This document shows positions 16,814 to 59,332 of a DNA stretch of 64,000 nt, piece by piece. The stretch's first letter is position 1. Each line of letters starts with the position of its first letter. The notes beneath the pieces are model-generated. The model was not told the DNA's origin. It made no database searches and worked only from the letters and a program-made list of their open reading frames with translations. Location: positions 229,301 through 293,300 of the forward strand of contig JBBTCT010000022.1 of assembly GCA_038060895.1 (NCBI GenBank), given 5' to 3'. This DNA is from Planctomycetota bacterium (GTDB lineage: Bacteria; Planctomycetota; MHYJ01; WSZJ01). A program made the position numbers and the translations under genes.

Positions 16814-16865
16814 TTTAGCCTCCGCCAGCTTTCGCCAGCCTCGGCCAGCCTTCGCCAGCCTCACC
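16814..16865. repeat. tandem 10-mer repeat, about 4.5 copies (TCCGCCAGCT TTCGCCAGCC TCGGCCAGCC TTCGCCAGCC), single arm
   Basis: Read directly. It belongs to the same family as the right arm at 32497-32550, including the leading 'CTTTAGCC'. Confidence 0.85.
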
Positions 16866-17585
16866 TTCCATTCCCGGCAAACCGCTGAGCCGCGTTCCGC
16901 TGGGGATTTCCTCAACCCCCTCGATGCACCGCACGATCCGCTTCGCCACTTCCGCCGGATCCGCCAGCGTCGCGGGGTCGGCCTCGGGCATTGCTTCGGC
17001 ATGCATGCGCGTGTTCATCTCGCCGGGGTCGATGCCGAGGAAGCGCACGCCGGTGCCTTCGAGTTCCGCGGCCCAGATGCGGGCGAGGTGATCGAGGGCT
17101 GCCTTGGAAGAGGAGTAGGCGCCCCAGCCGGGGTAGGCGCTTGTGGCGGCGTCGCTGGAGATGTGGAGGACGAGGCCGCGGCGGCGGAGGACCATGGAGC
17201 CGGCGAGGGCTTTGGTCAGGCGGAAGGGACCGACGAGGTTGACCTCGAGGACGCGGGAGAGGTCTTCGCACTCGGTGTCGAGGAGGAGGGGAAGGGGCGT
17301 TTTGCCGAGGGTGCTGGCGTTGTGGACGAGGAGGTCGATCGGGCCGACGAGGGCGGCCGCGGCGCCGGCGAGAGGGTAGATCGCGGACTTGTCGCCGATG
17401 TCGGCGGGGAGGGGGTGGGCTTCACCGCCTTCGGCGCGGATTTCGGCCGCGACGCGATCGAGATCCGTTCTTGAGCGGGCGACGAGGACGACGCGGGCGC
17501 CGCGGCGGGCGAGTTCCTTCGCGAGCGAGGCGCCGAGGCCGCGGCCGGCGCCGGTGACGAGAGCGGAAAGACGGTTGAGATTCAT
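16815..17585 (-). CDS. short-chain dehydrogenase/reductase (SDR)
   Basis: 'ALVTGAGRGLGASLAKELARRGARVVLVARS' (TGxxxGxG), 'NASTLG' and 'YSSSKAAL' (YxxxK). The last ~17 codons are translated from the 10-mer repeat. Confidence 0.9.
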   Translation of the reverse strand: MNLNRLSALVTGAGRGLGASLAKELARRGARVVLVARSRTDLDRVAAEIRAEGGEAHPLPADIGDKSAIYPLAGAAAALVGPIDLLVHNASTLGKTPLPLLLDTECEDLSRVLEVNLVGPFRLTKALAGSMVLRRRGLVLHISSDAATSAYPGWGAYSSSKAALDHLARIWAAELEGTGVRFLGIDPGEMNTRMHAEAMPEADPATLADPAEVAKRIVRCIEGVEEIPSGTRLSGLPGMEGEAGEGWPRLAKAGGG

Positions 17586-22899: not shown

Positions 22900-22990
22900 G
22901 AAGCGGTCTCCCGGGTGAATTGGCAGGGCGTCCCCCGGTGCATGAGACGGCCCGACGGGGGTGCGGGTCAAGCGCATTTCTGAAGTTCTG

Positions 22991-23030
22991 GGCTGGCATG
23001 GGCCGGCATGAGCTGGCGTTGGCTTAGTTC
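22991..23030. repeat. tandem 10-mers GGCTGGCATG GGCCGGCATG AGCTGGCGTT GGCTTAGTTC
   Basis: Read directly. Same family and orientation as the left arm at 32372-32432. Confidence 0.7.
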
Positions 23031-23252: not shown

Positions 23253-23364
23253 GGTAACCCACCTCTCAGCGCTGTTTGCGCGCCGCCGAAAGTCGAGATG
23301 CGGAAGACCGCATGGACGCCAGATGTCGCTGTGCCTCCCAGTCTGAAGGTTTCAATGCCAAGTT

Positions 23365-24924: not shown

Positions 24925-25081
24925 CGAAGCGCCGCTCATCTTTGACGAAACGCACTTCGTAAGTCGAAGCCCTGTGGTGCGCGAAACTTGTGTCGCGTGC
25001 CGCACCGGCCGGTTCCGTTGAATTCGTCAAGAGTGAGCGAGTGCCGGATCCTTTTCCGGATCCCGCCCCGGGGAATGTGAG

Positions 25082-25096
25082 TGGCCCGCGGCTTGC
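25082..25096 (+). promoter_or_regulatory. sigma-54-type -24/-12 promoter candidate TGGCCCG-N4-TTGC
   Basis: TGGCCCGCGGCTTGCG matches the consensus TGGCACG-N4-TTGCW, with GG and GC at the canonical spacing. It ends 13 nt before ATG 25110. Confidence 0.5.
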
Positions 25097-25109
25097 GATA
25101 AAGATTCGC

Positions 25110-25637
25110 ATGGGAGCCTGCTGCGGCGGATGCGATGAGGGCGCGAGTTGCGCTGGCAAACAGCCTGCGGCGGTTTTGCTGCCTCCGGACCTGATCATCC
25201 CGGGACCCGACCCGGATCGCACGGGAGTGCTTGAGCTGGAAGAAGTTCCGGATGAGACGACGAGCGATGAATCGGTCCCGCTGATCACGAAGTCGCTCGG
25301 CCCCACCCGGCCAGTCGCACTTAACACCCGTCTCGTCCTCACGGACGGCGGAACGACTGTCAGCGAAGCGCTGCACGTCCGGGGTTGCAACTCGGGTAGC
25401 GTCGACCTTGTCGTCTTCCTTCTGAATTCGATCTCGACCATAGACGCGGTCCTGGAGGGCGGAATCGACGGAGAAAACTACCGCCGGATTTCCTCGACGC
25501 GATTCAGCGCAGCCGGGTTTGCGAGGTTCCGATTTCGCCGGGTGGGTTACCGCTTTCTCCGAGTGTATTACAGCGCTTCCGGCTCGGCCGGTGGCGTCGC
25601 TGTCCTGACCACAACGATCAACGGTTCATCCAACTGA
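25110..25637 (+). CDS. cassette protein A: Cys-rich N-terminus, Pro/acidic linker, beta-rich C-domain
   Basis: 'MGACCGGCDEGASCAGKQ...'. The C-domain 'AVLEGGIDGENYRRI...YRFLRVYY' is paralogous to protein B. The track ORF extends to GTG 24990; the start chosen here follows the promoter candidate. Confidence 0.6.
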   Translation: MGACCGGCDEGASCAGKQPAAVLLPPDLIIPGPDPDRTGVLELEEVPDETTSDESVPLITKSLGPTRPVALNTRLVLTDGGTTVSEALHVRGCNSGSVDLVVFLLNSISTIDAVLEGGIDGENYRRISSTRFSAAGFARFRFRRVGYRFLRVYYSASGSAGGVAVLTTTINGSSN

Positions 25638-25656
25638 CCCCCAAAGGAGGACGTTC

Positions 25657-25980
25657 ATGGCCTATGCCAAGCTCTTTACAAACTTGTCCGTCGTCAACGG
25701 AGTTTCGCAGTACTCGCAACCGTTCAGTATGGCGGGGAACAACGCGTTCCGGTTCGGAGTGACGGTCTTCAGCAACTCCGCGACGAGTCTGACCTGTACG
25801 CCCCAAGGTTCCATCGACGGACAAAACTGGCGGGACCTCACCGCCGCAACCGGGCTCGTCGTCGGGTGGGCCTCGTTCACGCAAGGGAGCATCACCGACC
25901 TGATGGTGAGACTCGTCTGCACGGTCGTAGGAACCGGGACGATCGTCCTGGCCGCTGATGTGTACACGAGCCAGCAGTAG
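25657..25980 (+). CDS. cassette protein B: 107-aa beta-rich protein (possible major subunit)
   Basis: Strong SD (AAAGGAGG, 6 nt before the ATG). 'TPQGSIDGQNWRDLTAA...LMVRLVC' parallels protein A. A stable hairpin follows the gene. Confidence 0.7.
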   Translation: MAYAKLFTNLSVVNGVSQYSQPFSMAGNNAFRFGVTVFSNSATSLTCTPQGSIDGQNWRDLTAATGLVVGWASFTQGSITDLMVRLVCTVVGTGTIVLAADVYTSQQ

Positions 25981-26026
25981 GAACACGAAGAGTCGGAGCA
26001 GTCGCAACCCTCGGACCAGTCGGGGC

Positions 26027-26055
26027 GGAGGAGAGCCGTCGTCCGGCTCTCTTCC
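26027..26055 (+). other. intercistronic GC-rich hairpin (12-bp stem, 5-nt loop, no U-tract)
   Basis: GGAGGAGAGCCG tcgtc CGGCTCTCTTCC, read directly. It lies between cassette genes B and C. Confidence 0.6.
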
Positions 26056-26100
26056 GTCCGGCTTCCGAAATAAAAACATCGTCGTTACAAAGAGGTCGAA

Positions 26101-26667
26101 ATGCCCGAACTTCCGCTGACCTACGTCTACGAGCCGCCGAACTGGCTTGCGCGCGCGAACGCCTACGGCTCCTGCGTCGGCGGCCGGAGATTCTCCGTCG
26201 CGCATCAGACACCCGGGACGACCGTGACGGGGCAGACCTCCTTCGTGGCCACGACTCCCACGTTCCTGATCAACCAGGCGAGCGCCGCGCACCGCGTCGT
26301 GCTCTCGAACTTCGCGCTCTGCCAGATCGGGACGCCCGCGGGAGGGACGATCCACGTGGCGCTGGCGATCGACTCGTCGGATCGATACTCCTCAGGAGGG
26401 ACGTCGATCACCCCGCAGGCGACCGCGATGCCCAGTGCGCTCACCGCGGGCTTCAGTTTCCGGTTCAACCCGACCGCCGCCGCCGCCAGCGCCGTCCGGA
26501 TCCTGAACGAGTGGACCCAGCCCGCGTGGGCCGGTTCGATTTTCAATCCCGACCTGCATGACGGCGTCCTGATCGGATACACGGGTTCGATTCTGATCTA
26601 TACGTGGGCGGCCACGACGGCGCCGACGTGGATCATCGGCGGCTTCGACGTCCTGGAGGACGAGTAG
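26101..26667 (+). CDS. cassette protein C: 188-aa beta-rich protein
   Basis: SD 'AAGAGG' precedes the start. Ser/Thr/Ala/Gly-rich with alternating hydrophobic pattern ('VVLSNFALCQIG', 'ILIYTWAATTAPTWIIGGFDV'). The stop lies 1 nt before the gene D start. Confidence 0.7.
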   Translation: MPELPLTYVYEPPNWLARANAYGSCVGGRRFSVAHQTPGTTVTGQTSFVATTPTFLINQASAAHRVVLSNFALCQIGTPAGGTIHVALAIDSSDRYSSGGTSITPQATAMPSALTAGFSFRFNPTAAAASAVRILNEWTQPAWAGSIFNPDLHDGVLIGYTGSILIYTWAATTAPTWIIGGFDVLEDE

Positions 26668-26668
26668 G

Positions 26669-27553
26669 ATGCCGACGATCCGAGACCTGAGCCAGGGCGG
26701 CGTCCAGCCTCACGCCTCGACGCACATGTCGGGAGGTTCCGACGCGATCAAGCTCGACGAGCTCGCCGCGCCTACGGACGTCACGACGCTGAATGTCTCC
26801 ACTTCGGCTCACGGGCTGACGCCGAAGCTCCCGAACGATGCGACCAAATACCTCGACGGGACTGGCGCGTTCAGCGTCCCTGCGGGAAGCGGCGGCTCCG
26901 GCTCGTACCTCGGGACCACCGTGAAGACTTCCGGCACGACGTTCACGACCGGAGCCTCCACCAACACGATCCGTGTACGCCTTCAGGCCGGCGGCGGTGG
27001 AGGCGGCGGCGCTGCGTCGAATCTATTCAGCCCCGCCGGCGGCGGTGGCGCGGGCGGATACGCGGAAAAGACATTCGCCGTGAGCCCCTCGACCGCCTAC
27101 ACCTGCGCGATCGGCGCCGCAGGAGCCGGGGGCTCGGCAGGAAACAACAACGGCTCGGCCGGAGGGAACTCCACTTTCGCAGTCGGCGGAACGACCGTCA
27201 CAGCTTTCGGCGGCAATGGCGGAATCGGAACTGCCGGCGGAAGCGGCTCATCCGCGATCTTCGTTCTGGGGGGCGCTGCCGCATCCGTCTCCACGAGCGC
27301 CGACCTGAACGCAAGCGGCTCGCCGGGAGGGTTCGGGACAGGAAGTGGCGGCATTGGTGGTAGCGGCGCCTCGGGAGCCGGAGGTTCGTGCCTCTTCGGC
27401 GCCGGCGGAAACAGCCTCAATACCCAGAGCGGCGGCGCCGCGGGCGTCGGTTACGGCGCGGGCGGAAGCGGCGGCTGTTCGCTTTCCAGCGGCGGAAACG
27501 TTGCCGGCGGCGCAGGACTCGCCGGGGTGATCGTCGTCGAGGAGTTCTCGTAG
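26669..27553 (+). CDS. cassette protein D: phage-tail-fibre-like N-terminus + glycine-rich domain
   Basis: 'HASTHMSGGSDAIKLDELA...STSAHGLTPKLPNDATKYLDGTGAFS' is followed by a 'GGGGGGGAAS...GGGGAGGYAEK...GGNGGIG' glycine-rich domain. Confidence 0.8.
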   Translation: MPTIRDLSQGGVQPHASTHMSGGSDAIKLDELAAPTDVTTLNVSTSAHGLTPKLPNDATKYLDGTGAFSVPAGSGGSGSYLGTTVKTSGTTFTTGASTNTIRVRLQAGGGGGGGAASNLFSPAGGGGAGGYAEKTFAVSPSTAYTCAIGAAGAGGSAGNNNGSAGGNSTFAVGGTTVTAFGGNGGIGTAGGSGSSAIFVLGGAAASVSTSADLNASGSPGGFGTGSGGIGGSGASGAGGSCLFGAGGNSLNTQSGGAAGVGYGAGGSGGCSLSSGGNVAGGAGLAGVIVVEEFS

Positions 27554-27574
27554 CAAGATCGAGGAGATGAAGTC

Positions 27575-28015
27575 GTGAGCGGAAACGGCTGTTCCTTCTG
27601 GGCCCAGAACGTCTCCCCGGAGACGAGCTGGCCGATTTCCTCCGAAGCGCCGGCGGGGATGGACGGAATGTCCTGGTCGAGCGAGTGCGTCTGGGACGCG
27701 ATGTCCTTCCCGCAGGGAGTCCTGCAGGTCTCCGCGCCCGTCGAGATCCGGAACCCAAACAACACCGTGATCTTCTCCATCGTGATCATCGGCCAGAGCA
27801 GCGGGTCTCCTCAGCTCGCCATCGTATTCTCCGGCGCCAATTGTCCGGAGGGTCCCTACACCACGCTGAGCGGGCCGACCAACATCACGACCTTGGGCCT
27901 GCAGTTCCTAGGCGCCGTGACCGGAATCAGGTTCCCCTACGTCCGGGCAGAAGTCATGTCGTCGAACGGGAGTGCGGTGGCGGGGAGCGGGTGCTTTTGT
28001 GTCTCGGAAGCCTAA
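27575..28015 (+). CDS. cassette protein E: 146-aa beta-rich, Cys-containing protein
   Basis: GTG start with SD 'GAGGAG' 9 nt upstream. 'VIFSIVIIGQSSGSPQLAIVFSG...IRFPYVRAEV' is the same style as A and B. Confidence 0.65.
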   Translation: MSGNGCSFWAQNVSPETSWPISSEAPAGMDGMSWSSECVWDAMSFPQGVLQVSAPVEIRNPNNTVIFSIVIIGQSSGSPQLAIVFSGANCPEGPYTTLSGPTNITTLGLQFLGAVTGIRFPYVRAEVMSSNGSAVAGSGCFCVSEA

Positions 28016-28173
28016 AGCCAGCGTTCGCTCGACAAACCAACCGTCCAAAGCGCCATCGGTGTAGCACATAACGAGAAGAGGTTTCGCGCGACTGTCTCTC
28101 ATCAAAGTCAAGTCAGAGCTCTCCAGCGCCTGACGGGTCTTCGAGTCGATTTTCCCTAGAGAAGGAGGTACCG

Positions 28174-28656
28174 ATGCCAGATCCAGAGATTGTGTCAATT
28201 GACGAAATCTTGCGTGCTAATGAGCTAAGGGATCCGCTGACCGGGGTCAGAACCGGCGGCACCGTGCTACACCCTGGCACTGGCGTGAAACTTCGGAAAG
28301 ATCGGCCTTCAGGATCCATTGGAATCAACTTGGACACAGGTCAATTGGAGATGCATGACTGGGGGCCGACCGTTGCTGGGCCCAGTACTGATTTCTCAAA
28401 GTTACCTGAACGAATCCGACTCTTTGGGGGAGAAACTGGCGACGGGCCCAGGGTGGGTCGTGACCCAAAGGAGTCTGAGGACCGTGGCGTGGAGATGCTG
28501 CTTCCGGAAGGCGTGAGAAAATTCGTCGCAGGAGATGCGCTGAAGGCAGGTATTGTCTCCATTTCCTTCGAGTTCGGAGGACCTTGGGGCCTTACCGTCA
28601 CGTTTGGAAGGCCGCCTGAGCCGGCTGGGGTCAGACGGAAGGACCTGGAGAAGTGA
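28174..28656 (+). CDS. hypothetical protein (low-GC island)
   Basis: Strong SD (GAAGGAGG, 5 nt before the ATG). 160 aa. No motif recognised. Confidence 0.6.
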   Translation: MPDPEIVSIDEILRANELRDPLTGVRTGGTVLHPGTGVKLRKDRPSGSIGINLDTGQLEMHDWGPTVAGPSTDFSKLPERIRLFGGETGDGPRVGRDPKESEDRGVEMLLPEGVRKFVAGDALKAGIVSISFEFGGPWGLTVTFGRPPEPAGVRRKDLEK

Positions 28657-28760
28657 CGCAATGCGAAACACGATCCATTTCTCGAAGTCGAGGACTGTCT
28701 GGGATGGGATGACTTCCCAGGAGCTAACCGCGCCTCCGTCGAAATCTCAGGAGCACGTCA

Positions 28761-29909
28761 ATGCGAACAGAAGCTTCTAGCGAACTGACTCATTCGTCAA
28801 GGTGGTGTCATCCAGTTACATTTGCACTTGCCTTGTTTCTTGGATGCGCCGCGGGTCAGGGCACCAACGAATCGAAGCCAGAAGAACCCAGGATTCACAA
28901 TTCGGTGGAATTGAGGGACTCGCAAGGGAGGATCCGGCTCTCGATCTGTCTGGATCAAGATGAGTGTCCTCAAATCATGCTATTTGATCCCGCCGGACAC
29001 CCTCGCTCGCGAATTGGACTAAGTTCGGAATTCGAACCCGTAATTCGTATGACGGGTTCGAACGGCGAGGATGCGGTTTCGCTTGGTTTGCGCGAGGATT
29101 CCCCCCAACTCCGGCTGGAGTGTGGCGAGGGACGAAGTGGTATTCGGATCCAGGCTGAAGCAACGCGAGGACCGGAGTTGACGTTGTCGGATGGCGATGG
29201 TTTGGAGCGCGCCCGACTGGCAATTGATCGTGGCGCCCCACAACTTTCGATGTTGGACCCTGGACTCAAGCCTCGCCTGTACCTTGGAACCGAGGTCTCG
29301 ACACCGGATAATTACGGACTCCGCGTCACCTCAGACGACGGCCTTTCCCGCGCGGAGGTTGGCACGACAAAAAACTCGCCGGCGTTCATCCTCGTTTCTG
29401 GAGGCGCTGGCGAATGGTCAGCGCTTGCAATGAGCCGTGGCGGGCACCCGCTGCTAAGCTTTGTCGATTCGACCGACATCGAACGAATTCGAGTCAGCTT
29501 GACGCCTCAACAGGAGTCCGAAGTAGCGCTTTGTAGCGCCGAAGGTCAGATTTCCGTTCTGGCAAGATGTCCGAAGTCGGGTTTCGGGTTGGTCAACTTG
29601 TCCGATGGCGATTCACCGACAGCCGTGTTTCTGGGGAAAGGTTCGTCCGGTGATGTCTTGGCCGGGATCGTTGATGCGGCGGGGTGTAGACGAGCGAGCT
29701 TGTCGCTAACCCCGGAGGACCGAGCTTACGCCTCCGTACAGGATTCGACCGCCTCCTCAGCCTTTCTGACGAACGATGGCAAAGGACTTTGCAAACTCGA
29801 GCTGAATCGAAAGGGAAAGACCAGACTGCTCGCGGGTTTTGACAAGACTGATACAGCATCCTTCATGTCGCTTGATTCGGAGGAAATCGAAACTTGGCGA
29901 TCAAAGTAG
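28761..29909 (+). CDS. lipoprotein built from ~20-aa 'L.L.D..G..R..L' type repeats (low-GC island)
   Basis: Lipobox 'LALFLGCAAG'. Recurring units include 'VELRDSQGRIRLSI', 'IMLFDPAGHPRSRIGL', 'LTLSDGDGLERARLAI' and 'LRVTSDDGLSRAEVG'. Confidence 0.7.
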   Translation: MRTEASSELTHSSRWCHPVTFALALFLGCAAGQGTNESKPEEPRIHNSVELRDSQGRIRLSICLDQDECPQIMLFDPAGHPRSRIGLSSEFEPVIRMTGSNGEDAVSLGLREDSPQLRLECGEGRSGIRIQAEATRGPELTLSDGDGLERARLAIDRGAPQLSMLDPGLKPRLYLGTEVSTPDNYGLRVTSDDGLSRAEVGTTKNSPAFILVSGGAGEWSALAMSRGGHPLLSFVDSTDIERIRVSLTPQQESEVALCSAEGQISVLARCPKSGFGLVNLSDGDSPTAVFLGKGSSGDVLAGIVDAAGCRRASLSLTPEDRAYASVQDSTASSAFLTNDGKGLCKLELNRKGKTRLLAGFDKTDTASFMSLDSEEIETWRSK

Positions 29910-30203
29910 ACTGCGGGGCTGCCATTCTTCTACAGACAGGCTTCAGTAGATGCGGTCGGGCGTCTCGATGGGGTTGAGACGTCGGGTGTAGACGGTTTCG
30001 CGACGTTGTAGACGTCGTAGGGCGACTCTTCCGTTCGGACGGAGCCCAACACCTGGGCTTGCGGGACACCCCGAACCTCCGAACGCAAATCGCTTCGTCC
30101 ACATCCAATTTCCCCAGGAGTCTCATGCCCGCCTTGCTCCGCCTCCCCCGCCAATGCTAAAGTCGCCCTTCCGGGTAACCCAGGGCCCGGTTGAGGGCCT
30201 CTC

Positions 30204-30725
30204 ATGGACGCAACGAAACCGGAAGTCGCCGCTCCAGCACCGCCCGCGCCGCTGGCCGACCCGCGCGTGGACAAGCTCCTTGAAAAGATCGGGATCCTTG
30301 AGCAGCTTTTCGTGAAGCGCATCAAGGACGACCAGGCGCACGCGGCGGCGTACAACACGCTGTACCAGGACATGTCGAAGTACCGGGACGACGCGTTCCG
30401 GGGGGCGCAGAAGTCGCTTCTCAAGGGTCTAGTGCTCATTTACGACACGATGAAGCGGTCCATTTCGGGGATCGGGGACGGGACGGTGCGCGAGATGGTG
30501 AACCTGCACGTCGAGGAACTGCTCGAGCTGCTTCATCGCCACGACGTCGAGCGGATGCCGGACACGCTGGGAAAATTCGACCGGAACGTGCAGCAGGCGC
30601 TGGGGACGGAGCCGGCGGCGACGGCGGAAGAAGATCAGACTGTTGCGCGAGTGGTGCGTGACGGGTTCAAATGGGGGACTCAGGTGTTGAGGCCGCAGGA
30701 AGTAGTGATTAAGGTAAAAAAGTAG
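30204..30725 (+). CDS. GrpE-like nucleotide-exchange factor
   Basis: The C-terminal 'LGKFDRNVQQALGTEPA...DQTVARVVRDGFKWGTQVLRPQEVVIKV' matches the GrpE pattern G.FDP..H.A....V..V...GY....vlRpA.V.V. Confidence 0.7.
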   Translation: MDATKPEVAAPAPPAPLADPRVDKLLEKIGILEQLFVKRIKDDQAHAAAYNTLYQDMSKYRDDAFRGAQKSLLKGLVLIYDTMKRSISGIGDGTVREMVNLHVEELLELLHRHDVERMPDTLGKFDRNVQQALGTEPAATAEEDQTVARVVRDGFKWGTQVLRPQEVVIKVKK

Positions 30726-30757
30726 TAGGGAGCAGGGGGTAGTGGGTAGTTGGTAGG
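30721..30757. repeat. GGTAG-type oligomer repeat (contains GGTAGTGGGTAG)
   Basis: agtagtagggagcagggggtagtgggtagttggtagg, read directly. The 12-mer recurs reverse-complemented at 34670-34681, and an 8-mer recurs at 32549-32556. Confidence 0.7.
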
Positions 30758-30788
30758 AAAGGCAAAGACTCTTAACAGGAGACCGTCC

Positions 30789-32378
30789 ATGGCCGACCAG
30801 AAGACGCCGATGACGTGCGGGATTGACCTGGGCACGACGAACAGCGCCATCGCGTTCATCGACGAGCACGGCAAGGCGCAGGTGATCCAGAACACGGACA
30901 ACGAGCGGATCACGCCCTCGGTCGTGCTGTTCGAGGAGAAGGAAGTCATCGTCGGCAAGATCGCCAAGAACTCGGCGGTGGCAGCGCCGGACCGGGTAGT
31001 GCAGTTCGTGAAGCGGCACATCGGCGAAGAGGGCTGGGTGAAGACGTACTTCGGGACGGAGTACACGCCCGAGACGATCAGCGCGCTGATCCTGAAGCGC
31101 ATCGTGCAGGACGCCGAGAAGGTGAGCGGCGGCAAAGTTGGGAGCGTGGTGATCACGGTTCCGGCGTACTTCAACGAAGTCGAGCGCAAGGCGACGCAGG
31201 ACGCGGGGACGATCGCGGGCCTGAACGTCGTCTCCATCCTCAATGAGCCGACGGCCGCGGCGCTGGCTTACGGGCTGGACCGGCTGGGCGAGAAGAAGCG
31301 CGTCCTGGTCTACGACCTGGGCGGCGGGACGTTCGACGTGACGATCATCGAGATCGACGGCACGAAGATCGACGTGCTGGCGACGGACGGCGAGCGGCGG
31401 CTGGGCGGCATCGACTGGGACGACGAGATCATCAACATGGTCTCCGAGAAGTTCCAGGCGGAGCACGGGATCGACCCGCGCAACGACCTCGAAGCGTGCC
31501 AGGACCTGCGCAACAAGGCGGAAGACGCGAAGATCAGCCTGTCGAAGCTCGAAAAGGTGCGCATCCTCTGCCAGTGCCAGGGCAAGACGACCAAGGTCGA
31601 ACTGACGCGCGAAGATTTCGAGAAGATCACCAAGGGCCTGCTCGACCAGACCGAGACGTACCTCGGGGTCGTGCTCCAGAAGGCGAAGCTCGCCTGGAAG
31701 GACATCGGCACCGTCCTGCTCGTCGGCGGCATGACCCGCATGCCCGCCGTGCAGGGCATGATCCAGCGTGTCACGGGTCTTAAACCCGAAACCGGCATCA
31801 ACCCCGACGAATGCGTCGCGATGGGCGCCGCCTACTACAACGCCGTCCTCGCCCTCCAGGCCAAGCCGTCCGAGGAGCCCGAGCTGGCGCTTCAGGGCGA
31901 AGCGCTGAAGGAGTCGATCGACGAGGAAGTCATGATCCTGCTGCAGGGCGTCGAGGTCACGAACGTGAACTCGCACTCGCTGGGCATCGTGGGCATCCAC
32001 AAGAAGACCGGCAAGCTGGTCGCGTACAAGATGATCCCGAAGAACACGCCGATCCCGGCCGACATCACAAAGCCGTTCGGGACGGAGAAGGAAAACCAGG
32101 TCAGCGTGCAGATCAAGATCGTCGAGGGCGAAGGCGAGACCCCCGAGGATTGCACGGAGATCGGGATGTGCGAGATCAAGGACCTCCCGAAGGGCCACCC
32201 CGCGGGCTCGATCATCGACGTGACCTACTCGTACAGCGTCGACGGCCGACTGCAAGTCACAGGCAAGGACCGCCTGTCCGGCAAGGAGGCCAGGGTCGAG
32301 ATCGTCCGCGCGAGCGGTATGGATGACAAAGAGATCAAGGAGGCGAAGAAGGACGTGGTTGAGATGGAAGTAGGCTAA
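30789..32378 (+). CDS. Hsp70-family ATPase, short form (no long helical lid)
   Basis: 'GIDLGTTNSAIAF', 'VITVPAYFN', 'LVYDLGGGTFDVTIIE' and 'VLLVGGMTRMPAVQ'. The start at ATG 30789 has SD AGGAG 8 nt upstream. About 529 aa. Confidence 0.9.
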   Translation: MADQKTPMTCGIDLGTTNSAIAFIDEHGKAQVIQNTDNERITPSVVLFEEKEVIVGKIAKNSAVAAPDRVVQFVKRHIGEEGWVKTYFGTEYTPETISALILKRIVQDAEKVSGGKVGSVVITVPAYFNEVERKATQDAGTIAGLNVVSILNEPTAAALAYGLDRLGEKKRVLVYDLGGGTFDVTIIEIDGTKIDVLATDGERRLGGIDWDDEIINMVSEKFQAEHGIDPRNDLEACQDLRNKAEDAKISLSKLEKVRILCQCQGKTTKVELTREDFEKITKGLLDQTETYLGVVLQKAKLAWKDIGTVLLVGGMTRMPAVQGMIQRVTGLKPETGINPDECVAMGAAYYNAVLALQAKPSEEPELALQGEALKESIDEEVMILLQGVEVTNVNSHSLGIVGIHKKTGKLVAYKMIPKNTPIPADITKPFGTEKENQVSVQIKIVEGEGETPEDCTEIGMCEIKDLPKGHPAGSIIDVTYSYSVDGRLQVTGKDRLSGKEARVEIVRASGMDDKEIKEAKKDVVEMEVG

Positions 32379-32550
32379 GGACAGGCTGGCATAGGCTGGC
32401 GGAGGCTGCGGAGGCTGGCGGAGGCTTTGGCGCAAAGGGAGGCAACCCCCTATGAGTAAGCGCCGACGCAATCGCCAGCCCCGATTCAGCCGACGCCTTT
32501 AGCCTTCGCCAGCCTCCGCCAGCCTCTGCCAGCCTCCGCCAGCCTCTTCA
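32372..32550. repeat. large inverted repeat made of tandem 10-mers (left arm ~5x AGGCTGGCGG, right arm 5x AGCCTCCGCC), ~64-nt spacer
   Basis: Read directly. The right arm is in perfect 10-nt register at 32501-32550. The arms are reverse complements of each other. Confidence 0.9.
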
Positions 32551-32556
32551 CTACCC

Positions 32557-33771
32557 ATGCCTGAAAACCGCTTCCACGAACTTCTGGGCCTCCCAGAAGA
32601 GGTCTCCGACCCGGACTATTACCAGCTCCTGGGCGTGCCACGCTCCGAGAATGACGCCGCCGCAATCGAGGCGTGCTTCAAGGAGAAGATGACGCATGTC
32701 CAGCACATCGAGAACCCGCGCCACAAGGAGTTTCTCGAGTTTCTCAAGGGGGAGCTGAAGCGCGCCCGGTCGATCCTGACCGACGAAGAGCGGCGCGGCG
32801 AGTACGACCGCGAGCTGGCGGAGGAGCGCGGCGACGAGCTTCGGAAGGTGCTGTCGCACATGCTCGTGGACGGGACGCTGAGCTCGATCGCCGAGGTGTC
32901 GGTCTTCCGCGAGGGTCACAATCTCGGGCTGAGCGGCGAGTTCGTGAAGCAGGTCGTGGACGAGGAGTTGAAGAAGGCGGGGGCGCGCCGCGTCTCGGTC
33001 GCGACGGGGACCAACGGGCACCAGACGCAGGTCCTCATGAACCAGAAGGCGCAGGAAGTCGCGCGCCAGATGCAGGAAGCCCGCATGGCGGCGCGCATCG
33101 CCGACACGCGCGCGAAGATCGCGGAGACGCACCAGAAGAAGGCCGAGGAGCAGGTGCAGGTCGTGCTGCAGAAGGCCCGCGTGGCCGAGGTCCAGAAGAA
33201 GCAGGCCGTCGAACTGGCGCAGGAAACCCGCGAACGCGCGCGGCAGGCCGAGATCCACAAGATGCGCGCCGAACAGAAGGTCCAGGCCGTCACGCAGAAG
33301 GCCCGCGAAGCCGAGACGCTCGCGCGCAAGGCGATTACCCGTGAGCACCTCGCCGCCGCCCGCCACAAGATGTCCGAACAGGAACGCAAGCAGCTCGAAG
33401 CCGGCATGAAGGAGGCGGAGACCCGCTTCCAGGCCTACGTCGAAGCCTCCAACGAAGAACTTGAGTCGGTCCGTGAGAAAGGCATGGCAGGGCGGCGCCT
33501 CACGATGTGCTACGCCCTCCTCAGCATGTCGCTCGTCGCCGGCGCCGCGCTGCCTAAATACGTGCCGGGCGCCGCTTCCGCCATCACGAAACTGCTCGAA
33601 CCCTATGTCTCCAGGGTCAGCGGCATTCCGCACGCGGCCCTGCCGCTCATCGCCATCGCAATCCTGCTCCCGACGCTTCATTGGCTGGCAGGGACGCGGG
33701 CCACCGGGTTCTTCGCGCCGCTGCTGGTTATCCTCGCGCTGGCCGTCGCGGCGGGCGTGCTGCGGGGATAG
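32557..33771 (+). CDS. J-like-domain protein without HPD, long coiled coil, C-terminal TM helices
   Basis: 'DYYQLLGVPRSENDAAAIEACFKEKMTHVQHIENPRH...ILTDEERRGEYDREL' is a J-domain scaffold with HIE in place of HPD. A Gln/Lys/Ala/Glu coiled coil follows. C-terminal TM segments are 'LIAIAILLPTL' and 'FFAPLLVILALAVAAGVL'. Confidence 0.8.
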   Translation: MPENRFHELLGLPEEVSDPDYYQLLGVPRSENDAAAIEACFKEKMTHVQHIENPRHKEFLEFLKGELKRARSILTDEERRGEYDRELAEERGDELRKVLSHMLVDGTLSSIAEVSVFREGHNLGLSGEFVKQVVDEELKKAGARRVSVATGTNGHQTQVLMNQKAQEVARQMQEARMAARIADTRAKIAETHQKKAEEQVQVVLQKARVAEVQKKQAVELAQETRERARQAEIHKMRAEQKVQAVTQKAREAETLARKAITREHLAAARHKMSEQERKQLEAGMKEAETRFQAYVEASNEELESVREKGMAGRRLTMCYALLSMSLVAGAALPKYVPGAASAITKLLEPYVSRVSGIPHAALPLIAIAILLPTLHWLAGTRATGFFAPLLVILALAVAAGVLRG

Positions 33772-44203: not shown

Positions 44204-44215
44204 TGTACGTCGGTT

Positions 44216-44307: not shown

Positions 44308-44325
44308 TTTTGCTGTTCTGAGGCT

Positions 44326-56108: not shown

Positions 56109-56762
56109 GTGCCCACCTTCCCCAGCACCATCTGGCACGACCTCGACCGCGCCCGCAACGGCGAGGCCGCCGCGTGGACCGCCGTCGTCACCCGCTATCG
56201 CCCGGCGATTCACTCCTTTCTTCGAAGCGCCGGCAGATCGGAGGCCGACGCGGATGACATCGCGCAGGATGTCTTCCTCCAGATGGTCCGCAGCAGCCTC
56301 CTCGACGGCGCGCACCCCAGGCGCGGCAAGTTCCGGAGCCTCGTCCTCGCCGTGACGACCAACGTCATGCGCCACAAGCTCCGCGACGACCGCGCGGAAA
56401 AACGCGGCGGCGGCAGGAAGCCCGTCCCGCTCGAAGGGCAGGACGTCCCGGCGCCCGAGGAAGAAGAGCGCTTCGACCGCGAATGGGTCAAGCGCATGGT
56501 CGCCTCGGCGCTCGAAGAGCTGGCCCGGACACGGCCGCTCTATCACGAAGCGCTCCGGCTCTCCCTCGAGGACCGGACGCAGGCGCAGATCGCGCAGACG
56601 CTGGGAAAGTCGTCCGCCCAGGTGAACAACCACATCCATCGCGCGAAGAAGTGGGTCCGGCGGCGGTTGCGCGCGCTGGTGAGGGAGTCGTGCGCGGACG
56701 CGGTGACGTACCGGGAGGAGCTCGCCTACCTCGGGAAGTACCTGGACCTGGAGGGGGAATAG
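56109..56762 (+). CDS. ECF-type RNA polymerase sigma factor
   Basis: Region 2 is 'YRPAIHSFLRSAGRSEADADDIAQDVFLQMV'. Region 4 is 'LEDRTQAQIAQTLGKSSAQVNNHIHRAKKWVR'. GTG start. Confidence 0.85.
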   Translation: MPTFPSTIWHDLDRARNGEAAAWTAVVTRYRPAIHSFLRSAGRSEADADDIAQDVFLQMVRSSLLDGAHPRRGKFRSLVLAVTTNVMRHKLRDDRAEKRGGGRKPVPLEGQDVPAPEEEERFDREWVKRMVASALEELARTRPLYHEALRLSLEDRTQAQIAQTLGKSSAQVNNHIHRAKKWVRRRLRALVRESCADAVTYREELAYLGKYLDLEGE

Positions 56763-56764
56763 CC

Positions 56765-59332
56765 CTATTTCGCAGCTTCCACCGACCGCACCAGCCTGAA
56801 CCCGATGTCGCTGTCCACTTCTCTCTCCGGATCCCCATCCACGAACGTCGTCCGAAACTCGACCCAGTCCATGTCGCGCGACCCGCCGCCCCGCACCCCG
56901 CGCAGCCTCACCGACTTGTCCTGCCAGTTCGAGCACCACTCCTTCACATTCCCCGCCAGGTCCATGATCCCGTACGGGCACTCGTCCGCGGGATTCGACC
57001 CGACGGGAAGCGCCCCGAGTTCCACCGTCGGTCGCGACCGCCCGCCGTTCGTCCAGATCCAGTCGAACGTCGGTCCCCACGGAAACGCACGCCCGTCCGC
57101 GCCGCGGGCGATCGCTTCGCGCTCCCGCGTCGTCGGAAGCCGCCACGGGAGCCCGTCCCGCTGCGCCCGCCACGCGCAATACTTCCGCGCGTCCCAGTAC
57201 GACACTTTCACCATCGGCAGACGCAGACCTCCGTCCGGGTAACCCGGCTCCGCCGGCATCAGCCGCCCGTCCCGCATCTCCCAGCCGTCCGGCGGCGCCC
57301 GCTTCCGCAATTCCTCCGGGTCCCCCGCTGCCGCAAGCGCCGCGAGATACTCCGCGTACTCCGCACGCGTAACCTCGTACTTCCCGGCCACCAGGTCCCC
57401 CATCTCGCGAACCCGCCGCCTCTCGTCCGGACCCACGACGAATTTTCCGGCAGGCACGTGCACGAAGTCCGCACCGATCTCCGCTTCCGTCAGCAGCCGT
57501 ACCGTCGCGGCCACCTGCGGATACTTGCGCGTGATCGCGAACGGGAAGCGCGTGTCCCGGCGGCCCGGGAGCCGGAGGATCGCCAGGTACGAACCCGCCG
57601 GCAGCTTTTCCGGCGGCGCTTTCATCGGGCGCAGCACGAGTCGTGGATCCTCTCCCTGCTCGTACCGGAAGTACTCAACGGCAGCGCCCGGCGGGTCCGA
57701 GGTGATCACCACCGAGCCGCTCGCGCGGTCGCACTCTTCCGACCTCGGCTTGTCGTAGAGCTTCAGCAGACCTTTCGCTTCCGCCATCTTGAGTGCATCC
57801 CCGGCCCACTCCGCGCGCTTGAAAGCTCTCCAGTAATAGCCGGACAGGAATTCCCGGGGCGGCGCGTAGTCCGGGTCGGCCTGTACGGCGGACGAATAGA
57901 AGTGGACCACCTTTGTGCGTTCCTCGGAGAGTTCGCGCTCGAGCGTGGCGATCCGGGTTTCCATTCTCCAGAGCTCGTCGTGCTTGCCGGAGGGCGCGGT
58001 GGTGTCGAGCGAAGCGAACAGCGCGTCGCGTTCGACCTGAAGTGCCTTGAGCGAGGCGCCAATCTCCTTCACACGCGCGCGTGCCGCCTTTCCCTGCTCG
58101 GTGTTGCGCTCCGCGTTGTACCGCTTTGCTTCCCGACGCTTGAGCGCCAGCAGGTTCGAGTTCCGGTCGCTCTTCTCGAGATTCCAGAGCTGGCTGGCCA
58201 GCCACACGGCCTGCTCCGTGTCGCGTTCCGCCAGGACCTCCGCGTGTTTCGCTTCGACGTCGCTCCGGTGGCGGGCGGCATCGACGGCGAGCTTCACGCC
58301 GAGTCCTGCGAGTGCGAGCACCAGGGCGGCTCCCGCCGTCGCGGCCGCGACATGACGGCGCACCCAGAGTTCCGCCTTGCGCGCCGGCGAAGGCGGGCGC
58401 GCGAGCACGCGGCCTCCGTCGAGATGTCTGCGGAGGTCGTCGGCAAAGGAAGCGGCATCCGGGTATCGGCGCGCAGGATCTTTTTCGAGGGCGCGCAGGG
58501 CGACGAGCTCGAGGTCGCGCGGGACGCCGGGATTCAGCGCGTTCGGGGGAAGCGGATCTTCATACGCGACCCGCCGGATCACGTCGGCCGCGTTATCCCC
58601 CTGGTGCGGGGCGCGGCCGGTGAGGATGTGGTACAGGATCGCGCCGAGCGCGTAGACGTCGGTGCGGACCGAAAGGAGCCCCGACTGCCCGAGCGCCTGC
58701 TCGGGCGCCATGTACCACGGCGTCCCCAGCGTCGTCCCGCTCTGCGTCAGCGCCGTCTCGGAATCGATCTTCCGCGCAAGGCCGAAGTCCGCGACCTTCG
58801 GCACGCCGGCAGGCGTCAGCAGCAGATTTCCCGGCTTCAAATCGCGGTGAATGATCCCCGTCCCGTGCGCGTAATGCACCGCCCGGCTCACCGTTTCCAG
58901 GATCTCCGCCCCCTTGCGAATCTCCACGTCGTTCGCGCTCAGCGCTTCCGCCAGCGTCCTCCCGCGGATCAGCTCCATCACCAGGATCATTCGCCCTTCT
59001 TCCCAGCCCACGTCGTAAATCGTCACGATGTTCGGGTGCGTCAGCTTCGCCGCCATCTCCGCTTCACGCCGGAACCGGATCCCCATCTCCGCGTCCCCGC
59101 GGCTCTCCTCGCGCAGCACCTTGACCGCGACCTCGCGCTGCAGCTTCTTGTCGAACGCCGCGTAAACCACCGCCGTGCCGCCGCGCCCGAGCTCCTCGCG
59201 CATCTCAAACCGCGAAGCCGCCAGCGGCGGCGCCATCTGCACCGTCGCCACTTCCTTCATGGCGCTTCGCATCGCATCGTCGAGGGATTCGGGTTTCATG
59301 GTCGAGGTCCGGGAAGCGGCGGGCATTTTCAC
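56765..59332 (-). CDS. Ser/Thr protein kinase - TM - coiled coil - FGE-sulfatase (SUMF1) domain fusion
   Basis: 'LGRGGTAVVYAA...VAVKV', 'HRDLKPGNLLL' and 'DFGLAR'. TM segment 'AATAGAALVLALAGLGV'. The C-terminal domain has 'VTRAEYAEYL', 'VSYWDARKYCAWR', 'LPTTREREAIARG', 'CPYGIMDLAGNVKEWC', 'RGGGS' and 'GFRLV'. Confidence 0.9.
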   Translation of the reverse strand: MKMPAASRTSTMKPESLDDAMRSAMKEVATVQMAPPLAASRFEMREELGRGGTAVVYAAFDKKLQREVAVKVLREESRGDAEMGIRFRREAEMAAKLTHPNIVTIYDVGWEEGRMILVMELIRGRTLAEALSANDVEIRKGAEILETVSRAVHYAHGTGIIHRDLKPGNLLLTPAGVPKVADFGLARKIDSETALTQSGTTLGTPWYMAPEQALGQSGLLSVRTDVYALGAILYHILTGRAPHQGDNAADVIRRVAYEDPLPPNALNPGVPRDLELVALRALEKDPARRYPDAASFADDLRRHLDGGRVLARPPSPARKAELWVRRHVAAATAGAALVLALAGLGVKLAVDAARHRSDVEAKHAEVLAERDTEQAVWLASQLWNLEKSDRNSNLLALKRREAKRYNAERNTEQGKAARARVKEIGASLKALQVERDALFASLDTTAPSGKHDELWRMETRIATLERELSEERTKVVHFYSSAVQADPDYAPPREFLSGYYWRAFKRAEWAGDALKMAEAKGLLKLYDKPRSEECDRASGSVVITSDPPGAAVEYFRYEQGEDPRLVLRPMKAPPEKLPAGSYLAILRLPGRRDTRFPFAITRKYPQVAATVRLLTEAEIGADFVHVPAGKFVVGPDERRRVREMGDLVAGKYEVTRAEYAEYLAALAAAGDPEELRKRAPPDGWEMRDGRLMPAEPGYPDGGLRLPMVKVSYWDARKYCAWRAQRDGLPWRLPTTREREAIARGADGRAFPWGPTFDWIWTNGGRSRPTVELGALPVGSNPADECPYGIMDLAGNVKEWCSNWQDKSVRLRGVRGGGSRDMDWVEFRTTFVDGDPEREVDSDIGFRLVRSVEAAK

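What the first reader, a model, noticed from the sequence alone, without database searches (positions are those of the whole stretch)
32372..32550. ~180-bp inverted repeat whose arms are tandem 10-mer arrays, between the Hsp70 and J-like genes
The left arm has ~5 units of AGGCTGGCGG (32372-32432). The right arm has 5 units of the exact complement AGCCTCCGCC in perfect 10-nt register (32501-32550). A ~64-nt spacer separates them. The element fills the whole intergenic gap and ends 6 nt before the J-like start codon, at CACTACCC-ATG. It could fold into a ~45-bp imperfect stem in RNA or as a cruciform. Because both arms are arrays, many alternative registers are possible, giving a slippery and potentially variable structure. 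Related single arms occur at 16814-16865 and 22991-23030. I know of no described REP/BIME-type family with this sequence.
Basis: seen in the sequence. Interest (0 to 1): 0.55.

Follow-up and report, generated by a model that had tools for sequence, protein, structure and literature searches.

The report
Dispersed decamer-array hairpin repeat in Planctomycetota
The inverted repeat between the Hsp70 and J-protein genes is real, and it is one copy of an apparently undescribed family of hairpin-forming intergenic repeats, built from tandem 10-base units, that is scattered through the genomes of a small group of uncultured Planctomycetota and comes and goes between related species.

Summary
Window 32383-32426 holds 4.5 units of AGGCTGGCGG. 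Window 32501-32546 holds 4.6 units of its complement. A 74-nt core lies between them. Together they fill the 178-nt gap between an Hsp70 gene and a J-domain gene in a GrpE-Hsp70-J operon. The predicted RNA stem is about 45 bp (-124 kcal/mol, z = -8.6).

It is not a locus-specific regulator. The same architecture recurs at 64 or more loci in four other Planctomycetia genomes. The order is always G-array, then core, then C-array (31 close pairs against 0 in the reverse order). The inner ends often read GGCTAACGAC...GTCGTTAGCC. The neighbouring genes are ordinary housekeeping genes.

Copies are gained, lost, halved and resized between related genomes. One site that is filled in the nearest relative is empty in the window. 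In six more distant relatives Hsp70 and J are 0-24 nt apart, so the element is an insertion into an ancestrally tight gene junction.

Best reading: a new REPIN/BIME/MITE-like selfish repeat family. Its copy here puts a long double-stranded RNA stem into the operon mRNA, which probably uncouples J from Hsp70. That effect on expression is inferred, not shown. Interest is moderate.

The parts
30750..32378 (+). Hsp70 gene (short, 529-542 aa type). The stop codon TAA is at 32376-32378. Its native 3' end GTAGGCTAA resembles the repeat unit.
   Evidence: Pfam HSP70, E = 1.8e-130. The C-terminus ...VG* is conserved in orthologues that lack the element.
32383..32426 (+). Left arm (G-array): 4.5 units of AGGCTGGCGG, including one 9-nt unit at 32403-32411. 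It starts 4 nt after the Hsp70 stop codon.
32427..32500 (.). Unique 74-nt core, which forms the loop of the hairpin. Its left end reads GGCTTTGGCGC and its right end reads GCCTTTAGCC, a variant of the family's GTCGTTAGCC inner boundary. It holds a 16-codon ORF (MSKRRRNRQPRFSRRL) that is not conserved in the orthologue.
   Evidence: the core is about 45% identical to the orthologue, while the arms are about 90% identical. No other copy of this core was found in the loci held.
32501..32546 (+). Right arm (C-array): 4.6 units of AGCCTCCGCC in exact 10-nt register. It ends 10 nt before the J-gene ATG.
   Evidence: Confirmed by the independent assembly L109.
32557..33771 (+). J-domain protein gene (weak DnaJ match; my reading of the sequence is a coiled-coil region and a hydrophobic C-terminus). 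The start codon is fixed by the conserved N-terminus MPENRFHELLGLP.
30204..30725 (+). GrpE gene, the first gene of the GrpE-Hsp70-J operon.
   Evidence: Pfam GrpE, E = 2.6e-17. The same gene order holds in all orthologous loci.
16815..16862 (+). Half element: the inner boundary TTAGCC plus a C-array of 4.5 units, lying between two minus-strand genes. The orthologous site in the nearest relative carries a full element (G-array, core, C-array).
22989..23030 (+). Degenerate G-array remnant (GGGCTGGCAT GGGCCGGCAT GAGCTGGCGT TGGCTTAG). The orthologous site in the nearest relative has a full element and sits at a break in gene order.
56760..56767 (.). Empty site: two convergent stop codons 2 nt apart (TAG CC CTA). 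In the nearest relative a full element lies between the same two stop codons.

Best explanation
The element is one copy of a lineage-specific, non-coding, dispersed repeat family found in a clade of uncultured Planctomycetota.

Architecture. A full copy has a fixed order: (AGGCTGGCGR)n, an inner boundary close to GGCTAACGAC, a variable core of 30-100 nt, an inner boundary close to GTCGTTAGCC, then (YCGCCAGCCT)n. The two arrays therefore form the arms of a long hairpin.

Behaviour. The family behaves like selfish or mobile DNA, or DNA spread by recombination, in the manner of REPINs, BIMEs or MITEs.
- Copies are present or absent at orthologous sites.
- Copies occur as halves and as decayed remnants.
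- Core types recur within one genome.
- Arrays expand and contract in blocks of one or two units.
- Unit variants are homogenised within each genome.

History of this copy. It was inserted, before the window organism and its nearest sequenced relative diverged, into a junction where Hsp70 and J are ancestrally adjacent or overlapping and so probably translationally coupled.

Inferred consequence (not shown). The operon mRNA carries a G+C-rich stem of about 45 bp. Its base lies 4 nt after the Hsp70 stop codon and 10 nt before the J start codon. A stem like this is a textbook substrate for RNase III and a barrier to 3'-to-5' exonucleases. It would separate or attenuate the J cistron relative to Hsp70. 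J translation would then depend on opening or cleavage of the stem, which would free an unstructured, pyrimidine-rich leader.
For: Family and architecture:
- 64 of 108 loci returned by a truncated scan of species-representative genomes lie in four Planctomycetia MAGs. The other 44 loci are single hits in diverse phyla.
- Among neighbouring arrays up to 700 nt apart there are 31 G-to-C pairs, 0 C-to-G pairs and 5 G-to-G pairs.
- 25 of 89 arrays end in GGCTAA(C) and 15 end in GGCTGA, against a background of 0.4%.

Non-coding and dispersed in the core genome:
- Units of 9, 10 and 11 nt are mixed within arrays.
- The 48 neighbouring genes scanned are housekeeping genes (sigma-70 factors, ribosomal proteins S12 and S7, ALAD, ScpB). 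None is a transposase or integrase.

Turnover between genomes:
- One site is empty in the window (56760-56767) and filled in the relative.
- The window has a half element at 16817 where the relative has a full one.
- The window has a remnant at 22989 where the relative has a full one.
- One locus is occupied in three genomes. Array sizes there are 15+8 against 3+5 units, and in the third genome the core is of a type found elsewhere in that genome.
- Core subfamilies recur within one genome.
- Unit variants are genome-specific.
- Arrays often lie at contig ends.

Insertion at this locus:
- The Hsp70-J gap is -1 to 24 nt in six relatives (L113, L115, L116, L117, L119, L120).
- It is 178 and about 180 nt in the window and its nearest relative.
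- Between those two, the arms are about 90% identical and the core about 45%.

Structure:
- RNA fold -123.7 kcal/mol, z = -8.6.
- The C-arm on its own is unstructured (-5.4 kcal/mol).
- No sigma-70-type promoter and no intrinsic terminator was found in 31800-33000.
Against: - No transcript data exist, so cleavage, stabilisation, attenuation and occlusion of the J start are all inferred from the geometry.
- No mechanism of movement was identified. There is no target-site duplication at the single empty/filled pair, and no cognate transposase was seen, although only 8-kb snippets of each genome were available.
- The unit sequence is nearly identical in genomes whose J proteins are only about 65% identical. 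Neutral junk DNA would not stay that similar. This implies either a conserved machinery or function acting on the unit, or recent spread between lineages.
- Elements also occur in apparently divergent (start/start) intergenic regions: 7 of 20 by a crude gene caller. This argues against a general role at gene 3' ends.
- The sense strand does not fold better than the antisense strand: it is more stable in only 2 of 11 co-directional cases. There is therefore no sign of selection on the RNA of the transcribed strand.
Confidence: 0.6

Rival explanations
1. It is a dedicated cis-regulatory RNA of the chaperone operon. On this view the structure was selected at this locus, as a thermosensor, an attenuator or a translational-coupling device. 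The hairpin would bring the Hsp70 stop codon and the J start codon together, so that terminating ribosomes open the stem or re-initiate on J.
For: - The stem base lies 4 nt after the stop codon and 10 nt before the start codon.
- The arms are conserved much better than the core between the two orthologues.
- Unrelated hairpin inserts occupy the same junction in other lineages: L110 z = -4.7, L112 z = -3.1, L114 z = -1.4.
- J has no Shine-Dalgarno sequence of its own.
Against: - The same element occurs at dozens of unrelated loci next to housekeeping genes.
- Six relatives have no insert at all.
- A stem of -124 kcal/mol cannot melt at physiological temperatures.
- In other co-directional copies the distances to the stop and start codons are not kept short.
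- Conservation of the arms is equally well explained by homogenisation within the family.
Confidence: 0.12
2. It is a transcription terminator or insulator. From whichever side RNA polymerase enters, it transcribes the G-rich array first and then its complement, so a hairpin forms for transcripts in both directions. Alternatively the G-rich non-template strand could favour an R-loop. Either way transcription would stop between genes.
For: - The exclusive G-to-C polarity gives the same RNA in both directions.
- 35 arrays abut a stop codon at -1 to 20 nt, and 27 of those are within 8 nt.
- One filled site lies between two convergent stop codons.
Against: - No U-tract follows the stem, and the terminator scan found nothing.
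- Copies lie inside operons whose downstream genes must be expressed: Hsp70-J here, and a single array between rpsL and rpsG in L057.
- As many outer ends face gene starts (35) as face stops (35), and 7 of 20 full elements appear to lie between divergent genes.
Confidence: 0.13
3. The arrays are binding sites in DNA for a lineage-specific protein, such as a nucleoid protein, a domesticated transposase or a recombination factor. One variant of this idea is a Chi-like signal, because the unit contains GCTGGCGG, one base away from the E. coli Chi sequence GCTGGTGG. On this view the hairpin potential is incidental.
For: - The unit sequence is conserved across genomes whose orthologous proteins are about 65% identical, while the cores diverge quickly.
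- The polarity is strict.
- Outside the arrays, GCTGGCGG shows a 16:5 strand skew in the window.
Against: - Units of 9, 10 and 11 nt are mixed, so helical phasing is not kept.
- The strand skew is confounded with coding-strand bias.
- No candidate protein was found, and nothing could be tested directly.
Confidence: 0.1
4. It is an assembly artefact, or it is protein-coding repeat sequence.
For: - Arrays frequently break assemblies.
- One ORF (16815..17585, minus strand) reads through the array at 16817 and stops in the boundary motif. The same happens in the orthologue.
Against: - An independent Logan assembly reproduces the right arm exactly.
- The orthologue in another MAG has the same architecture.
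- A 10-nt period, mixed with 9-nt and 11-nt units, is incompatible with a conserved reading frame.
- The Hsp70 stop and the J start are fixed by their orthologues.
Confidence: 0.03

Closest known systems
REPINs and BIMEs (REP doublets of Pseudomonas and Enterobacteria; PMC3116915, PMC3337134)
   Same: - Short extragenic repeats present in many copies per genome.
- Two arms in inverted orientation around a spacer, forming a hairpin.
- Found between housekeeping genes and inside operons.
- They persist in a lineage, with gain and loss at individual sites.
- BIME-2 clusters also contain tandem reiterations.
   Different: - The arm here is not a self-folding palindrome of about 25-35 nt with a GTAG head. 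It is an array of non-palindromic units of 9-11 nt, in variable number.
- No RAYT gene was seen.
- The cores are long and of several unrelated types.
MITEs that are co-transcribed and cut by RNase III, such as Neisseria Correia/NEMIS elements, and modular elements with a variable number of internal units, such as pneumococcal BOX. This comparison rests on my own knowledge; I did not read papers on these elements.
   Same: - Terminal inverted repeats.
- Insertion into operons without destroying them.
- Presence/absence polymorphism.
- A long double-stranded RNA stem in the mRNA.
- Modular length variation.
   Different: - No target-site duplication at the one empty/filled pair.
- No constant length and no single internal sequence.
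- The repeated units lie at the outer ends, not inside.
Cyanobacterial STRR sequences (short tandemly repeated repetitive heptamers). They are mentioned in PMC4748335 and PMC2670836; the details given here come from my own knowledge.
   Same: Short units repeated in tandem, dispersed in intergenic regions, and restricted to one lineage.
   Different: - Heptamers of unrelated sequence, in a different phylum.
- Not organised as opposed arrays around a core with boundary motifs.
Integron attC sites (own knowledge)
   Same: - Imperfect palindromes that start right after stop codons.
- The boundary motifs GGCTAAC and GTTAGCC match the attC core sites RYYYAAC and GTTRRRY at 6 of 7 positions.
   Different: - The flanking genes are core operon genes, not gene cassettes.
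- No integrase was found nearby.
- Decamer arrays are not part of an attC site.

Membership tests
REP / REPIN / BIME | The repeat unit is itself an imperfect palindrome of about 20-40 nt that folds on its own. | tested here: not met
   The unit AGGCTGGCGG is not palindromic. The long stem forms only between opposed arrays. The G-arm alone forms only short G.U-containing hairpins.
REP / REPIN / BIME | [quoted passage not shown] | tested here: met
   31 G-array/core/C-array pairs, including the window copy.
REP / REPIN / BIME | Extragenic and dispersed, with tens to hundreds of copies per genome. | tested here: met
   A truncated scan found at least 27, 19, 13 and 5 loci in the four MAGs. All are between genes. 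True copy numbers are unknown.
REP / REPIN / BIME | A cognate single-copy RAYT (Y1 transposase) gene flanked by the repeats. | tested here: inconclusive
   None was found among 48 neighbouring ORFs scanned with Pfam. Only 8-kb snippets around the matches were available, not whole genomes.
MITE | Terminal inverted repeats. | tested here: met
   Opposed arrays plus the inner motifs GGCTAACGAC and GTCGTTAGCC.
MITE | Target-site duplication flanking the insertion. | tested here: not met
   In the empty/filled pair the empty site reads TAG|CC|CTA and the filled site reads TAG|GATCCGGCGG...CCTCCCGT|TCA, with no duplication. This is a single case.
MITE | Presence/absence polymorphism at orthologous sites. 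| tested here: met
   Window 56760-56767 is empty and the site in the relative is filled. Half and remnant copies also occur.
Intrinsic (Rho-independent) terminator | A G+C-rich hairpin followed directly by a run of U. | tested here: not met
   The scan found no terminator-like site in 31800-33000. The sequence after the stem is CTTCACTACCC.
RNA thermometer (ROSE / fourU type) | A weak hairpin that pairs with the Shine-Dalgarno sequence or the start codon and melts at heat-shock temperature. | tested here: not met
   The stem is -124 kcal/mol. J has no Shine-Dalgarno sequence. No Rfam family reached its threshold.
CIRCE / HrcA operator | TTAGCACTC-N9-GAGTGCTAA | tested here: not met
   No match in the window with up to 3 mismatches.
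Integron attC | Core sites RYYYAAC and GTTRRRY around a folded centre, within a cassette array or next to an integrase. | tested here: inconclusive
   The boundary motifs match 6 of 7 positions. The context is wrong: core operons and housekeeping neighbours. No attC model was available to score the fold.
Cyanobacterial STRR | Tandem heptamers of the STRR consensus sequences in heterocystous cyanobacteria. | tested here: not met
   The units are 9-11 nt, of different sequence, and from Planctomycetota.

The most novel reading that the evidence does not exclude
The decamer unit may be kept constant by a dedicated, still unidentified machinery shared by this Planctomycetota clade. Candidates are a domesticated transposase or nuclease, or a protein that binds nucleic acid.

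The elements would then act as a genome-wide punctuation system. Any transcript that enters an element first makes the G-rich array (which contains Shine-Dalgarno-like GGAGG motifs) and then its complement (which contains CCUCC, like the anti-Shine-Dalgarno sequence). This would create a double-stranded RNA site that is processed, resetting the mRNA ends and translation between neighbouring genes.

On this reading, the repeated independent acquisition of hairpin inserts at the Hsp70-J junction reflects selection to uncouple J from Hsp70. It would not be mere tolerance of junk DNA.
Probability: 0.12. Interest if true: 0.75.

Novelty: new variant of a known kind. Interest (0 to 1): 0.45.

Why it matters
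Dispersed hairpin repeats such as REPs, REPINs and MITEs are well studied in Proteobacteria and a few other groups. They are hardly described in Planctomycetota, which have large genomes and are mostly uncultured.

This family adds a new design. Its arms are made of expandable arrays of 9-11-nt units. Its polarity is strict. Its unit is conserved across genomes that are otherwise quite divergent.

Practical points:
- The arrays break short-read assemblies in these lineages.
- They mark sites of rearrangement.
- They could serve as strain-typing loci.

Biological point: the copy studied here shows that a tightly coupled chaperone / co-chaperone gene pair can tolerate a 178-nt insertion that forms double-stranded RNA, and possibly benefits from it. 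This gives a concrete, testable case of how such repeats reshape expression within an operon.

Tried and rejected
1. Small ORF in the core (MSKRRRNRQPRFSRRL, preceded by AGGGAGG). It is not conserved in the orthologue. Rejected.
2. Rfam. Nothing reached a gathering threshold in the region. In E-value mode only generic long hairpins appeared (plant microRNA precursors, VA RNA), all far below threshold.
3. Sigma-70-type promoter or intrinsic terminator in or around the element. None found.
4. CIRCE operator. None found.
5. G-quadruplex folding of the G-array. It does not compete with the duplex in the full element and is marginal for single arms.
6. Selection on the sense-strand RNA, tested through G.U pairs. 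The sense fold was more stable in only 2 of 11 co-directional elements. No support.
7. Chi-like reading of GCTGGCGG. There is a 16:5 strand skew outside the arrays, but it is confounded with coding-strand bias. Left as a minor rival.
8. Population polymorphism and more orthologues from metagenomes.
9. Link to 23S-rRNA-IVS-type four-helix-bundle genes. One element (L021) encloses such a gene (PF05635, E = 4.5e-34). No other case was found in the loci held.
10. Transposase or integrase neighbours. None among the 48 ORFs scanned.
11. Similar DNA in plasmids or phages. None.
12. Literature search for the unit dimer. No hits.
13. Gene context of full elements. A crude GC3-based gene caller gave 11 stop/start, 7 start/start and 2 stop/stop contexts. 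This is too rough to establish or exclude a context preference.
Full report
**1. The observation**

- After the Hsp70 stop codon (TAA, 32376-32378) and 4 nt come AGGCTGGCAT, AGGCTGGCGG, AGGCTGCGG, AGGCTGGCGG and AGGCT (32383-32426).
- A 74-nt unique stretch follows (32427-32500).
- Then come AGCCTTCGCC, AGCCTCCGCC, AGCCTCTGCC, AGCCTCCGCC and AGCCTC (32501-32546).
- After 10 more nt comes the ATG of the J-domain gene (32557).

Tandem Repeats Finder reports both arrays: period 10, 4.5 and 4.6 copies, 88% and 91% matches. The repeat finder reports nine alternative pairings of the arms.

A two-unit pattern with up to 3 mismatches occurs 14 times in the window, against 2.0 +/- 1.5 in shuffles. As RNA, the region folds into a stem of about 45 bp at -123.7 kcal/mol, z = -8.6. 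The minimum-energy structure is only 0.4% of the ensemble, which fits the 'slippery register' idea. The other strand and the DNA fold behave the same way.

The 'first unit' at 32373-32382 is really the native end of the Hsp70 gene (Val-Gly-stop, GTAGGCTAA). Relatives without the element have the same ending.

The one at 22989-23030 is a degenerate remnant.

**2. Context**

The genes are GrpE (30204-30725), a short Hsp70 (30750-32378) and a J-domain protein (32557-33771). DUF1326 and PPK2 genes follow. There is no CIRCE operator. No sigma-70-type promoter or intrinsic terminator was found around the element. No Rfam family reached its threshold.

**3. A dispersed family**

I scanned one genome per bacterial and archaeal species for AGCCTYYGCCAGCCTYYGCC.

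- 64 loci lie in four Planctomycetia or Planctomycetota MAGs: X3_MetaBAT.40 (27), MFD10097.bin.2.14 (19), SJ466 (13) and binchicken_co200_325 (5).
- The rest are single hits in many phyla, about what chance allows.
- The window's own J protein is annotated in NCBI as coming from a Planctomycetota MAG.
- Many arrays lie at contig ends or next to scaffold gaps, so they break assemblies. The independent Logan contig for this locus also starts inside the right arm.

**4. Architecture of the family**

I oriented about 90 arrays and inspected their flanks.

(a) Polarity. Arrays that have a neighbour within 700 nt are always ordered G-array then C-array on the strand as read. The counts are 31 G-to-C, 0 C-to-G, and 5 G-to-G that are interrupted or nested arrays. 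A full element is therefore a defined unit, not a chance meeting of arrays. Transcripts from either side have the same form.

(b) Inner ends. These are often GGCTAAC(GAC), mirrored as (GTC)GTTAGCC. 25 of 89 arrays end in GGCTAA and 15 in GGCTGA, against 0.4% of random 26-nt stretches. The window copy has GCCTTTAGCC on the right. On the left it has GGCTTTGGCGC, as does its orthologue.

(c) Cores. These are 30-100 nt long and of several unrelated types. Some types recur at different loci of one genome: L012/L025, L052/L089, L024/L074/L093, L074/L085.

(d) Outer ends. These run right up to the flanking genes. With a crude GC3-based gene caller:
- 35 outer ends abut a stop codon at -1 to 20 nt, 27 of them within 8 nt.
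- 35 outer ends face a start codon at 1-112 nt.
- Full elements appear in 11 stop/start, 7 start/start and 2 stop/stop contexts.

(e) Units. Lengths of 9, 10 and 11 nt are mixed, and each genome has its own preferred variants:
- X3: AGGCTGGCGG plus the 9-mer AGGCTGCGG.
- MFD10097 and binchicken: AGGCTGGCGA.
- SJ466: also AGGCGGGCGG.

Arrays also show two-unit higher-order periods. This is the signature of local expansion and contraction together with homogenisation within a genome.

(f) Neighbours. These are ordinary housekeeping genes (sigma factors, S12, S7, ALAD, ScpB and others). No transposase or integrase was found among the 48 scanned. One single array lies between rpsL and rpsG.

**5. 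Turnover**

The nearest relative, X3, has coding DNA about 87% identical to the window. The two can be compared at four sites.

| Site in window | Window | X3 relative |
|---|---|---|
| Hsp70-J junction (32383-32546) | full element | full element |
| 16817 | half element (boundary plus C-array) | full element |
| 22989 | decayed remnant | full element, next to a break in gene order |
| 56760-56767 | empty: two convergent stop codons 2 nt apart (TAG CC CTA) | full element between the same two stop codons |

No target-site duplication is visible at the last site.

A further locus is occupied in three genomes (alignment A3). Two of them share a homologous core but have 15+8 against 3+5 units. The third carries a core of a type found elsewhere in its own genome (alignment A4). 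Copies are thus gained, lost, resized and exchanged.

**6. History of the Hsp70-J copy**

The J protein has only 21 detectable relatives. I recovered the junction in eleven further lineages.

- The gap between Hsp70 and J is 6, 0, 6, -1, 0 and 24 nt in L113, L115, L116, L117, L119 and L120. The ancestral state is therefore a tight, probably translationally coupled junction.
- The window and X3 have the 178-nt and roughly 180-nt element. Between them the arms are about 90% identical and the core about 45%.
- Three other lineages carry different inserts at the same place:
  - L110 (binchicken), 205 nt: one degenerate unit (GGCGAAGGCAAACGAC) and an A+T-richer long hairpin, z = -4.7.
  - L112, 116 nt: the stop codon lies inside GGCTAACGACC, followed by a G+C-rich hairpin, z = -3.1.
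  - L114, 121 nt: purine-rich and pyrimidine-rich arms, z = -1.4.
- L118 has 86 nt without significant structure.

The element here is therefore a lineage-specific insertion. This junction has accepted hairpin-forming inserts more than once.

**7. How it most likely works**

*Shown.* It is a member of a dispersed, non-coding, dynamic repeat family. It was inserted into an operon. It is predicted to form a very stable stem whose base lies 4 nt after one gene and 10 nt before the next.

*Inferred from general knowledge of bacterial RNA metabolism.*
- If the operon is transcribed through the element, a near-perfect stem of about 45 bp is a substrate for RNase III and a block to 3' exonucleases.
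- This would stabilise the GrpE-Hsp70 part of the transcript.
- It would separate or reduce the J part.
- It would leave J's start region sequestered until the stem is cut or opened.
- The freed C-arm is predicted to be unstructured (-5.4 kcal/mol).

*Not supported.*
- A thermosensor: the stem is far too stable.
- A canonical terminator: there is no U-tract, and copies lie inside essential operons.
- A helically phased protein-binding array: unit lengths are mixed.
- Selection on sense-strand RNA: one search gives no support.

*Unexplained.* The unit sequence is almost the same in genomes whose J proteins are about 65% identical. Some conserved machinery, some function, or recent spread between lineages must therefore maintain it.

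**8. Comparison with known elements**

- It works most like REPINs and BIMEs (PMC3116915, PMC3337134) and like co-transcribed MITEs. It fails defining features of both: the unit is not a palindrome, there is no GTAG head, no RAYT gene was seen, and there is no target-site duplication.
- It shares the 'short tandem unit, dispersed, lineage-specific' character of cyanobacterial STRR sequences, but not their unit or organisation.
- The boundary motifs resemble integron attC core sites at 6 of 7 positions, but the context is wrong.
- No paper in the searched library contains the unit dimer. No plasmid or phage record matches the element.

**9. Verdict**

The element is a new variant of a known kind: a dispersed hairpin repeat. 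Its effect on the chaperone operon is plausible but untested. Interest is moderate (0.45).

The most novel reading the evidence does not exclude is a maintained genome-wide punctuation system based on double-stranded RNA. I give that a probability of about 0.12.

Noticed in passing
window 44215-44308 and 44325-44421 (+): Two adjacent tRNA genes of 94 and 97 nt both have long variable arms of 21-23 nt, the class II shape normally seen only in Ser, Leu and Tyr tRNAs. Their anticodons are CCA (Trp) and UGG (Pro). The first has discriminator base G and a Ser-like body. The second has discriminator base A and a D-arm very like tRNA-Leu. Each anticodon is one base change away from CGA (Ser) and UAG (Leu) respectively. 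If these tRNAs are charged according to their bodies, they would read UGG as Ser and CCA as Leu. Compare the allo-tRNAs of PMC5389517 and the review PMC7609411. This may deserve its own follow-up.
   Followed up: partly
L021 3329-4008 (MFD10097.bin.2.14): One full element encloses a complete minus-strand gene for a 23S-rRNA-intervening-sequence-type four-helix-bundle protein (PF05635, E = 4.5e-34) in its loop. This mimics the stem-plus-ORF layout of 23S rRNA intervening sequences. It is the only such case among the loci held.
   Followed up: partly
L110 2796-3000, L112 2885-3000, L114 2880-3000: In other lineages, unrelated hairpin-forming inserts occupy the same Hsp70-J junction. Six relatives have a gap of 0-24 nt there. 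In L112 the Hsp70 stop codon lies inside GGCTAACGACC, the boundary motif of the family, with no arrays present.
   Followed up: yes
L057 5621-5650; also L076 about 5551-5585 and L035 about 107-140 (X3_MetaBAT.40): A second small repeat, CCCTTCGACTCGCTSCGCTCGCTCAGGGC, has complementary ends. It is inserted inside or beside decamer arrays at three loci of one genome.
   Followed up: no
window 22990-30128 against L089 5404-4316: Gene order breaks next to an array. The window has about 7 kb between the remnant array and GrpE, where the nearest relative has about 1.1 kb. This suggests a rearrangement or indel at an element.
   Followed up: no
window 16815-17585 (-) and L052 4560-4660: The minus-strand ORF upstream of the half element reads through the array and stops at the TAA of the GGCTAA boundary motif. 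This happens in both the window and its orthologue, and the two C-terminal tails differ. G-arrays contain no stop codon in any frame.
   Followed up: partly
window 13191-13219 / 13287-13315: Another strong inverted repeat (29-nt arms, 90% complementary, 67 nt apart) lies just upstream of a possible minus-strand gene start. It is unrelated in sequence to the decamer family, and no other copy was found in the loci held.
   Followed up: partly
window 23229-23253 and 48967-49035: A perfect (GCAA)6 microsatellite lies in an intergenic stretch. A period-8 GCGGCCGG array of about 8.5 copies, 65% matching, lies further on.
   Followed up: no
window 30750-33771: This chaperone set is atypical. The Hsp70 is short (529-542 aa). 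It is paired with a J-domain protein that appears to have a long coiled-coil region and a hydrophobic C-terminus. That protein family has only 21 detectable members. From memory, the arrangement resembles E. coli HscC/DjlC rather than DnaK/DnaJ.
   Followed up: no
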